Shown here piece after piece: positions 12,954-15,107 of a stretch of 15,107 bases of DNA. Under the pieces are notes generated by a model. The model saw only the letters and a list, made by a program, of their open reading frames with translations, made no database searches and was not told where the DNA came from. Numbering within the stretch: position 1 is the stretch's first letter; every line of letters starts with the position of its first letter. This DNA comes from Tubiluchus corallicola. Lineage: Eukaryota > Animalia > Priapulida. A program made the position numbers and the translations under genes. The stretch covers positions 1-15,107 of the forward strand of contig JAQGDQ010002097.1 in NCBI GenBank assembly GCA_030141605.1, written 5' to 3'.

Positions 12954-13143
12954 GCTCCAGATTTCTATGCAGAGATGACGTGGGAGTTCACCAGTTGGGT
13001 ACCCCTCGTGTCTCGGGTGTGCCCGAGCGACACGTACCGGGTGTACAAAAGAGGCGCCGCAGTGAGGATCGATACGACGCTGCTGGGTTTCGATCAGATG
13101 AGCTGGCAAAGGGGCAGCAGAAGTTATATTTTCAAAGGGGAAG
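12954..13143 (+). CDS. ANKRD13: ANKRD13-family internal exon C (start of the conserved post-ankyrin domain)
   Basis: TTTACAG| 190 nt |[69 protein letters not shown], the signature ANKRD13 motif block. Confidence 0.95.
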
Positions 13144-13259
13144 GTAAGTGGAAGTTATATTTTCAAAGGGGAAGGTATGTGGAAGTTATATTTTCAAAGG
13201 GGAAGGTAAGTGGAAGTTATATTTTTGAAAGGGGAAGGTATGTGGAAGTTATATTTTGA
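13120..13259 (+). repeat. 31/32-bp minisatellite spanning the exon C donor, ~4.5 copies
   Basis: GAAGTTATATTTTCAAAGGGGAAG|GTA(A/T)GTG at 13120, 13151, 13182, 13213, 13245 (partial); degenerate echoes to ~13460. Confidence 0.95.
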
Positions 13260-13456
13260 GGAGGTGGGGAGTTTTTGCAGAGAGTGGAGCGGTGGTATGG
13301 AAATAAGAGTTTTGAAAAAAGGGGTAGCAGGCTCATATTTCAGTAGTTTTCGCTGGCAGTAGCGGCTATACTCGTGAAGGAAGTTATATTTTTGAGGTGG
13401 TATGAAGTTATATTTGAAAGGCGGTTGTGTAGCAGTAAGTAGCTATATTAAAAGGG

Positions 13457-13746
13457 GAAGCTAAATAGGTAATGAATAAACAGACAAATAAAGAAATTGA
13501 TACAGTAAATTATGCACTAATTATGTATTTAACAGAAGCTAAATAGGTAATGAATAAACAGACCAGTAAAGAAATTGATACAGTAACTTAAGCACTAATT
13601 ATGTATTTAACAGAAGCTAAATAGGTAATGAATAAACAGACCAGTAAAGAAATTGATACAGTAACTTATGCACTAATTATGTATTTACAGAAGCCAAACA
13701 GGTAATGATTAAGCAGACCTGTAGAAAAGAAATTGATGCAGTAACA
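13457..13746. repeat. 78-bp tandem repeat, ~3.7 copies
   Basis: GAAGC(T/C)AAA(T/C)AGGTAATGA recurs at 13457, 13535, 13613, 13690. Confidence 0.93.
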
Positions 13747-13879
13747 AATAGGGAAGTGTTTGAAAATAAAGTTAAAAGAATTGAACTGCTTTGTACACTA
13801 AGAGAAGGCTTATTAGGGTACAATAAAACAAAGTTGACCTGACTTTATTTTCTTTTATTTATTTCGTTTTTCTTTCTTC

Positions 13880-15017
13880 TAACTTCTACTTACTTTCCCC
13901 TTTCAAAAATATAACTTGCACTTACCTTCCCCTTTCAAAAATATAACTTCCACTTACCTTCCCCTTTGAAAATATAACTTCCACTTACCTTCCCCTTTCA
14001 AAAATATAACTTCCGCTTACCTTCCCCTTTCAAAAATATAACTTCCGCTTACCTTCCCCTTTCAAAAATATAACTTCCACTTACCTTCCCCCTTTCAAAA
14101 ATATAACTTCCACATACCTTCCCCTTTGAAAACATAACTTCTGCTTACTTTCCCCTTTCAAAAATATAACTTCCACTTACCTTCCCCTTTGAAAATATAA
14201 CTTCCGCTTACCTTCCCCTTTCAAAAATATAACTTCCACATACCTTCCCCTTTCAAAAATATAACTTCCGCTTACCTTCCCCTTTCAAAAATATAACTTC
14301 TGCTTACCTTCCCCTTTGAAAATATAACTTCCGCTTACCTTCCCCTTTGAAAATATAACTTCCACTTACCTTCCCCTTTCAAAAATATAACTTCCACTTA
14401 CCTTCCCCTTTCAAAAATATAACTTCCACTTACCTTCCCCTTTCAAAAATATAACTTCCACTTACCTTCCCCTTTCAAAAATATAACTTCCGCTTACCTT
14501 CCCCTTTCAAAAATATAACTTCCACTTACCTTCCCCTTTGAAAATATAACTTCCACTTACCTTCCCCTTTGAAAATATAACTTCCACTTACTTTCCCCTT
14601 TCAAAAATATAACTTCCGCTTACCTTCCCCTTTCAAAAATATAACTTCCACTTACCTTCCCCTTTGAAAATATAACTTCCGCTTACCTTCCCCTTTGAAA
14701 ATATAACTTCCGCTTACCTTCCCCTTTGAAAATATAACTTCCACTTACTTTCCCCTTTGAAAATATAACTTCCGCTTATTTTCCCCTTTCAAAAATATAA
14801 CTTCCACTTACCTTCCCCTTTCAAAAATATAACTTCCACTTACCTTCCCCTTTCAAAAATATAACTTCTCTACCTTCCCCTTTAAAATATAACTTCCCTA
14901 TTCCCCTTTAAAATATAACTTCCACTTACCTTCCCCTTTCAAAAATATAACTTCCACTTACCTTCCCCTTTCAAAAATATAACTTCCACTTACCTTCCCC
15001 TTTGAAAATATAACTTC
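13880..15017 (-). repeat. Inverted array of the exon C donor minisatellite, ~36 copies
   Basis: Plus-strand unit C(A/G)CTTACCTTCCCCTTT(GAAAA|CAAAAA)TATAACTTC is the reverse complement of the 13120-13259 unit; copy number estimated from length. Confidence 0.97.
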
Positions 15018-15107
15018 TGCTGCCCCTTTGCCAGCTCATCTGATCGAAACCCAGCAGCGTCGTGTCGATCCTCACTGCGGCGCCTCTTTTGTACACCCGG
15101 TACGTGT
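14994..15107 (-). other. ANKRD13: Inverted duplicate of ANKRD13 exon C (3' 114 nt visible; runs off the window end)
   Basis: Reverse complement of 13030-13143 with one difference (T13073 vs C at 15064 on the minus strand; GAT>GAC, Asp, synonymous); donor GTAAGT intact. Confidence 0.95.

What the first reader, a model, noticed from the sequence alone, without database searches (positions are those of the whole stretch)
13030..15107. Fold-back structure: inverted near-identical exon C copy plus ~36 inverted donor repeats
Seen: exon C + ~4.5 repeats (+), ~620-nt spacer, ~36 repeats (-), then exon C (-) with one synonymous difference, continuing off the window. No next ANKRD13 exon is recognisable between the arms. 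Inference if real: the pre-mRNA could form a >200-bp duplex covering the exon and its donor (splice masking, A-to-I editing, endo-siRNA), or this is a tail-to-tail gene duplication. Equally plausible: a mis-join of two haplotypes through the minisatellite, since a lone silent SNP is what an allele would show.
Basis: partly seen in the sequence, partly recalled or inferred. Interest (0 to 1): 0.75.

Follow-up and report, generated by a model that had tools for sequence, protein, structure and literature searches.

The report
Likely assembly fold-back at splice-donor minisatellite
The mirror-image copy of an ANKRD13 exon at the end of this animal sequence is likely a fold-back artefact of sequencing or assembly at one ordinary gene, while the roughly 36-fold tandem repeat of the exon's splice donor is real but of a kind already known from humans and amphioxus.

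Summary
The layout is in the window as described, but the inversion is likely not in the genome (about 0.83). In run X1, two versions of the DNA before exon C (depth 79, identical to the window, and 85.5) merge into one unbroken exon contig of depth 165.8. One heterozygous locus predicts 164.5; a duplication predicts 243-329, unless single-copy depth is about 80, which I could not measure. The second version's three exonic changes are all synonymous, as in a working allele. All three runs covering the 'silent difference' read the right-arm C. At 13258 the + arm drops abruptly into garbled array-like sequence and flips strand at a 4-nt overlap, as fold-back reads do. A related, probably RNA, contig runs from the first donor into the next exon, which the window lacks. 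The donor array is real and is an amphioxus-'mirage'/human-F7-type minisatellite; exon A carries a second one. No raw or spanning reads were available, so a real inversion is not excluded. The scan's notes showed no similar finding.

The parts
9665..9800 (+). ANKRD13(D-like) exon A, ankyrin repeat
9726..10807 (+). Second donor-reiterating minisatellite: 7 units of ~156 nt, each the last 75 nt of exon A plus its GT donor and ~80 nt of intron
11866..11990 (+). ANKRD13 exon B
12954..13143 (+). ANKRD13 exon C; T at 13073 is not seen in X1, X3 or X6 (all read C)
13120..13257 (+). Left array, 4.4 units of 31-32 nt (last 23 nt of exon C + donor); unit order differs from the right array
13258..13460 (+). 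Garbled array-like stretch (about 6 units, 20-26 identities per 28-31 nt); likely the low-quality second arm of a fold-back read
   Evidence: interpretation inferred
13457..13460 (.). Inferred strand-flip point: 4-nt overlap GAAG shared by the end of the 31-nt unit's exon part and the start of the 78-nt unit
   Evidence: position of the flip inferred
13460..13830 (.). Copy of a high-copy interspersed repeat with 3.7 internal 78-nt units; likely true intron sequence downstream of the array, read on the - strand
   Evidence: orientation inferred
13880..15017 (-). Right array, 36 units of 26-33 nt; 27 of 36 keep AAG|GTAAG; likely the true intron-C minisatellite
   Evidence: array contigs in X1, X2, X3; distal end covered in X1 and X3
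14994..15107 (-). Inverted copy of the last 114 nt of exon C, carrying the C that X1, X3 and X6 read; cut by the window end

Best explanation
This is likely one heterozygous ANKRD13D-like gene, and its inverted exon copy is likely an artefact: the assembly probably followed a fold-back long read that ran through exon C, the ~36-unit donor minisatellite and the intron beyond, then turned back onto the array. SHOWN: the layout; the abrupt loss of identity at 13258; two upstream versions whose depths add up to the exon contig's depth; synonymous-only changes in the second version; the array present in three DNA runs; a contig joining exon C to the next ANKRD13 exon. INFERRED: the true order is exon C > array > A-rich stretch > high-copy repeat > ... 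> exon D, which is the right arm read on the - strand. The turn is at about 13460 with a loop of about 1.2 kb. The left arm up to about 13257 comes from one allele and the garbled part from the chimeric read alone, so the arms may be the two alleles. The chemistry (amplification template switch, library fold-back, missed adapter) cannot be told. In the real gene the most upstream donor would be used, as in human F7 and amphioxus mirages. Downstream donors would give a stop codon 20 nt into the intron (right array) or a frameshift (left array), so stray use would likely be lost to nonsense-mediated decay.
For:: X1 contigs over 12827-13016 at depth 79 (0 differences from the window) and 85.5 (10 substitutions, 5 gap letters) merge into one unbroken contig 12987-13149 at 165.8; one locus predicts 164.5, a duplication on the window's allele 243.5, on both 329; the 7 longest other X1 contigs listed (repeat-derived) have depths 127-211, median 173, none near 80; the array's distal end (13874-13930), single-copy in either model, has 146-190 in X1 and 13.5-15.4 in X3, against exon 165.8 and 11.6, so about 1:1 where a duplication predicts 2:1 (summed bins, an upper bound); 3 of 3 exonic changes in X1's second version are synonymous (P about 0.01), and X3 shares them and shows one version only; a dead inverted copy would not be so constrained, and a working - strand copy has no downstream exons in the window; 30-31 of 31 identities per step from 13030 to 13246, then 20-26 of 28-31 from 13247 on. 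All departures lie in the part of the + arm that can pair with the - arm; 12827-13016 just upstream matches X1 exactly. That is the pattern described for nanopore reads through inverted duplicates (PMC7229812). Fold-back and inverted chimeras with short overlaps and distances under 10 kb are common artefacts that create false inverted duplications in assemblies (PMC9984789; PMC12338684; PMC6218980). X6's 19-letter loose end after exon C translates (by hand) as G-D-I-A-T-L-M, with the 7-residue spacing found in 57 of the 60 homologues that carry the motif (114 examined).
Against: Only contigs were available, no raw or spanning reads, and the tool warns that depth is not copy number. No clean single-copy baseline (EXT2) was measured: if single-copy depth in X1 is about 80, the two versions would be paralogues and exon C duplicated. 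The repeat-derived contigs used as baseline may be inflated. Garbled bases after an inversion also occur in nanopore reads of genuine inverted duplicates, and real minisatellites often have decayed boundary units (PMC3087553), so 13258-13460 could be real. The arms differ in unit order, and a left-arm stretch (13148-13194) absent from the right arm is held exactly by X1 and X2, which a pure single-molecule fold-back does not explain. The T/C change is synonymous, as only about 21% of random changes are, so it may be a real allele dropped by contig building (145 expected against 165.8 seen: suggestive only). X1 may be the source sample or may not be the same individual.
Confidence: 0.78

Rival explanations
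1. A real inverted duplication of exon C and its array in the germ line (fixed paralogue or an allele of the sequenced animal), lying inside the gene's own intron, so that the pre-mRNA could fold back over the exon's 3' end and donor.
For: The arms differ (T/C, unit order). X1 holds two upstream versions about 7% apart, which could be paralogues if single-copy depth is about 80. A 4-nt overlap at the flip fits replication template switching too. The arms could pair over about 228 nt (duplex energy -398 kcal/mol). Garbling after the junction is seen with genuine inverted duplicates on nanopore.
Against: Exon depth equals the sum of the two versions and matches other contigs at about 170. The exon contig is unbranched from 12987 to 13149. 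The second version shows only synonymous exonic changes although a - strand copy has no downstream exons. X3 shows one version; X1, X3 and X6 all read C.
Confidence: 0.13
2. A pure assembler mis-join of two haplotypes through the minisatellite or the high-copy repeat, with no chimeric molecule.
For: The arms look like two alleles; the locus is strongly heterozygous; a high-copy repeat sits at the join.
Against: The array is not palindromic and does not match itself on the other strand (the garbled stretch scores 19 against the array as written, chance 18), so overlaps in it cannot flip strand. The garbled 203 nt point to a poor read rather than a clean overlap.
Confidence: 0.05
3. A real but rare (somatic or single-cell) fold-back made at an unstable minisatellite and picked up by the assembler from one molecule.
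For: Somatic instability is reported for amphioxus mirages (PMC3087553); a rare molecule would leave depth at the one-locus value.
Against: Library fold-backs are far commoner (about 0.55-0.6% of nanopore genomic reads, PMC12338684; 12-48% of reads after whole-genome amplification, PMC6218980). Nothing here distinguishes it from an artefact.
Confidence: 0.04

Closest known systems
Fold-back / inverted-chimera artefacts of long reads (PMC12338684; MDA inverted chimeras PMC9984789; Pacasus PMC6218980; passages read)
   Same: One locus read forwards and then backwards, a short overlap at the turn, a distance of about 1.2 kb between the segments, and a false inverted duplication in an assembly.
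   Different: The turn is asymmetric (about 1.2 kb loop, beyond Breakinator's 200-bp rule); the overlap (4 nt) is below the 5-8 nt typical of MDA; the arms differ in array unit order; platform and library are unknown.
Base-calling failure after inverted duplicates on nanopore (PMC7229812; results section read)
   Same: Wrong and missed bases confined to the second arm, starting at the junction and limited to the part that can pair.
   Different: There the inversions were genuine, so the signature does not separate artefact from real; here only about 200 of 430 nt are garbled.
Amphioxus 'mirages' (Adh3, BflGb6, BflGb9; PMC3087553, passages) and human donor-spanning VNTRs (F7 IVS7 37 bp x5-9, CBS 31 bp x15-20, 6-16 with 25 pseudo-sites, LMNB2, PDGF; PMC1557585, abstract and passages)
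   Same: Tandem unit made of exon end plus donor, reiterated into the intron; unit sizes 31 and 156 nt are in the known range; normal splicing from the most upstream donor (X6).
   Different: Likely a priapulid worm (an ecdysozoan); about 36 units, more than the counts in those passages (up to 26 donor sites); two of three visible exons of one gene carry such an array.

Membership tests
Fold-back / inverted chimera artefact | Two segments of one locus on opposite strands in one sequence | tested here: met
Fold-back / inverted chimera artefact | Locus not duplicated in independent short-read data | tested here: met
   Per-contig depths 79 + 85.5 = 164.5 against 165.8; an inference from contig depth without a clean single-copy baseline
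Fold-back / inverted chimera artefact | Junction supported by one molecule only | not testable with these tools
   Only contigs were served; no raw or long reads
Fold-back artefact as defined by Breakinator | Second segment starts within 200 bp of the end of the first, near the read's middle | tested here: not met
   Inferred loop of about 1.2 kb; read midpoint unknown. It works like a fold-back but is not of the symmetric class
MDA inverted chimera | Overlap of about 5-8 nt and chimeric distance under 10 kb | tested here: inconclusive
   4-nt overlap, about 1.2 kb; whether the DNA was amplified is unknown
True inverted duplication / genomic palindrome | Arms at twice single-copy depth | tested here: not met
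   165.8 against 243-329 predicted; exon to array-end ratio about 1:1 in X1 and X3; baseline caveat as above
True inverted duplication / genomic palindrome | Junction bridged in independent data | tested here: inconclusive
   No listed contig bridges it, but the tables were cut and holes prove nothing
Mirage / donor-spanning minisatellite | Tandem unit spans the exon-intron boundary and repeats the donor | tested here: met
Mirage / donor-spanning minisatellite | Array present in genomic data at this boundary | tested here: met
   Array contigs in X1, X2, X3; exon contigs of X1 and X3 end at 13149 where the array starts; rough size 27 and 49 units
Mirage / donor-spanning minisatellite | Splicing uses the most upstream donor | tested here: inconclusive
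   One X6 contig (RNA by guess, another sample, 9 differences in 138 letters) joins the first donor to the next exon; whether X6's animal carries the array is unknown
Mirage / donor-spanning minisatellite | Length polymorphism between alleles | tested here: inconclusive
   The arms differ in unit order and rough sizes differ between X1 and X3; no phased reads

The most novel reading that the evidence does not exclude
A real fold-back inversion arose at an unstable splice-donor minisatellite and placed an antisense copy of exon C and 36 antisense donors inside the gene's own intron, so this allele's pre-mRNA folds into a >200-bp duplex that masks the donor, invites A-to-I editing or feeds endo-siRNAs: a minisatellite-driven, allele-specific RNA switch on ANKRD13.
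Probability: 0.12. Interest if true: 0.55.

Novelty: not a real feature. Interest (0 to 1): 0.14.

Why it matters
If the best reading holds, the fold-back should be dropped as biology, and inverted copies near piece ends in this assembly should be treated with caution. What remains is modest: mirage-type donor arrays, described in amphioxus and a few human genes, also occur in a likely priapulid, twice in one gene and with about 36 donors in a row. That is a natural test of upstream-first 5' splice-site choice outside chordates. My searches found no paper holding priapulid + minisatellite + intron and only three holding mirages + minisatellite + exon; the library lacks most subscription journals, so this is weak evidence of novelty.

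Tried and rejected
No own genome is held, so the extent of the inverted homology and the remaining exons could not be mapped. No listed holder is on record as RNA: 'no RNA holder listed', not evidence. No contig of X1, X2, X3 or X4 lay on 13273-13470, and none of X1, X3, X5 or X6 on 13280-13444 or 13841-13873. I do not count these holes as evidence: X1 also has a hole at 12790-12826 that X3 covers, and the A-rich stretch may be filtered. X1's loose end at 13257 and X3's go-back joint continue as ordinary units, but could come from anywhere in the array. 'Opposite strand' joints lie inside the high-copy repeat and belong to other copies; rejected as support for the inversion. One X1 contig (record 4) is compatible with the right arm's unit at 14809-14750, but its letters were not shown; not counted. 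An acceptor-like site in the 78-nt repeat on the - strand was considered as exon D and rejected (no ANKRD13 similarity). The garbled stretch does not resemble the reverse of the spacer (43 against 38+-6; 32 of 200 shuffles reach it), which rejects a symmetric turn. Rfam: 0 matches at gathering score. An exact search of metagenome contigs for the exon-array junction gave 0. The scan's notes held nothing near this place, nothing like the high-copy repeat and no similar fold-back. A search for ANKRD13 + duplication + invertebrate listed three unrelated papers (listing only). No structure prediction was run, as it does not bear on the question. No supplements were read.

Full report
1. What is in the window. 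The DNA is animal. An intronless exostosin-2 frame at 3536-5692 has Priapulus caudatus as its best named match (67%; the other listed hits 53-63%), so a priapulid worm is likely (inference). Three ANKRD13 exons follow on the + strand: A 9665-9800, B 11866-11990, C 12954-13143. The last 114 nt of exon C recur on the - strand at 14994-15107 with one synonymous difference. A 31-32-nt unit made of the exon's last 23 nt plus the donor stands 4.4 times on + and 36 times on -; 27 of the 36 keep AAG|GTAAG. No later ANKRD13 exon is in the window on either strand.

2. The spacer. It is not unique DNA. 13258-13460 is more of the array on the + strand, but garbled: score 129-131 against 78+-9 for shuffles, none of 200 reaching it. 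Identity to the right arm is 30-31 of 31 per step up to 13246, then 20-26 of 28-31. At 13457-13460 a 4-nt overlap joins it to a 78-nt tandem unit. 13460-~13830 belongs to a very high-copy interspersed repeat: 3948 X1 contigs were laid on the stretch, with summed depths of 10^5-10^6 in this part against 166 on the exon. The garbled part does not resemble the reversed spacer, so the turn is asymmetric, with an inferred loop of about 1.2 kb. The two arrays differ in unit order from the second unit; 59 of 199 left-arm 31-mers are absent from the right arm, 31 of them because of the T.

3. Is exon C in the genome once or twice? Six runs were listed and all six were laid across two calls, all as contigs; X1, X2 and X4 are one sample, possibly the source. 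In X1 the DNA before and at the start of exon C comes as two contigs, depth 79 (identical to the window over 190 nt) and 85.5 (10 substitutions, 5 gap letters), and these merge into one unbranched contig over 12987-13149 at 165.8. One locus with two alleles predicts 164.5; a duplication on the window's allele 243.5; on both 329. The escape is that single-copy depth is about 80 and the two versions are paralogues. Against that: the 7 longest other X1 contigs listed have depths 127-211, median 173 (repeat-derived, possibly inflated); the array's distal end, single-copy in either model, has depth like the exon in X1 and X3 (summed bins, an upper bound); all 3 exonic changes of the second version are synonymous (P about 0.01), though a - strand copy has no downstream exons to work with; and X3, another study, shows one version that shares 6 of those changes. 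The tool warns that contig depth is not copy number, and I could not measure EXT2 as a clean baseline, so this is inference.

4. The lone silent difference. X1, X3 and X6 all read C at 13073, the right-arm letter. If half of X1's molecules carried T and the bubble had been dropped, the contig's mean depth would be about 145, not 165.8. That is suggestive only, and a synonymous change is more typical of an allele than of an error (21% of random changes). Error and dropped allele remain open; neither reading needs a paralogue.

5. The transcript. One X6 contig (RNA by guess, another sample, 9 differences in 138 letters) covers 13008-13145 and goes on with 19 letters unlike the window. Translated by hand in frame they give G-D-I-A-T-L-M; Branchiostoma ANKRD13 has V-D-S-A-T-L-M-E there, and the 7-residue spacing is that of 57 of 60 homologues carrying the motif, of 114 examined. 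So in that animal the first donor is spliced to a normal next exon. Downstream donors would be unproductive: a stop codon 20 nt into the right array, frameshifts in the left.

6. Mechanism. The true intron likely reads exon C > ~36 units > A-rich stretch > high-copy repeat > ... > exon D, which is the right arm on the - strand. A fold-back molecule or read turned at about 13460 back onto the array, and the assembler used it to extend a piece built from the 79-depth allele, ending inside exon C. This accounts for the strand flip, for the garbling confined to the part that can pair (as described for nanopore in PMC7229812, results read) and for arms that look like two alleles. Such reads are common: about 0.55-0.6% of nanopore genomic reads (PMC12338684, passages) and 12-48% after whole-genome amplification, where they created false inverted duplications in an assembly (PMC6218980, passages); MDA inverted chimeras have short overlaps and distances under 10 kb (PMC9984789, passages). 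The platform is unknown, and that the window ends at a contig end is assumed, not shown. Confidence 0.78, plus 0.05 for a mis-join without a chimeric molecule.

7. Against this reading. No raw or spanning read was seen. Genuine inverted duplicates garble nanopore reads in the same way. Real arrays can have decayed end units (PMC3087553, passages). A left-arm stretch missing from the right arm is held exactly by X1 and X2. A real germ-line inversion keeps about 0.13, a rare somatic one 0.04.

8. What is real. The donor array is held by X1, X2 and X3, with rough sizes of 27 and 49 units per haploid set in X1 and X3. These match amphioxus 'mirages' (PMC3087553) and the human F7, CBS, 6-16, LMNB2 and PDGF minisatellites, where only the most upstream donor or the next two are used (PMC1557585, abstract and passages). 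They are new members of a known kind. Searches found no report for priapulids in the held library.

9. Verdict. Fold-back: likely not a real feature (about 0.83). Donor arrays: real, known kind. Interest 0.14; most novel reading 0.12 likely, 0.55 if true.

Noticed in passing
window 9726-10807 (+): Second mirage-type array in the same gene: 7 x ~156 nt, each the last 75 nt of exon A plus the GT donor; two of three visible exons carry donor arrays.
   Followed up: partly
window 13460-13830: Very high-copy interspersed repeat with internal 78-nt tandem units, held by X1, X3 and X5; the window's copy differs from the majority letter at many places; family not identified, no Rfam match.
   Followed up: partly
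window 3536-5692 (+): Exostosin-2 coded in one uninterrupted 718-codon frame, 67% identical to Priapulus caudatus; intact GT47 and GT64 domains.
   Followed up: partly
window 12827-13016: The two X1 versions differ by 10 substitutions and 5 gap letters in 190 nt, and X3 by 18 in 357: very high local heterozygosity.
   Followed up: yes
window 5938-6403, 11222-11665, 12394-12782: Further minisatellites (72 nt behind the EXT2 stop, 113 nt x3.9 in intron A, 124 nt x3.1 in intron B): nearly every non-coding stretch of this gene region holds one.
   Followed up: no
window 1-275 and 15107: The window starts inside a (TC)n run and ends inside an exon, as a short unplaced piece might; not verifiable without the assembly.
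   Followed up: no
window 5693-9664: The first ~35 codons of ANKRD13 were not found by tblastn; only a 15-nt exon-like piece with a donor at 9575-9589 was seen.
   Followed up: partly
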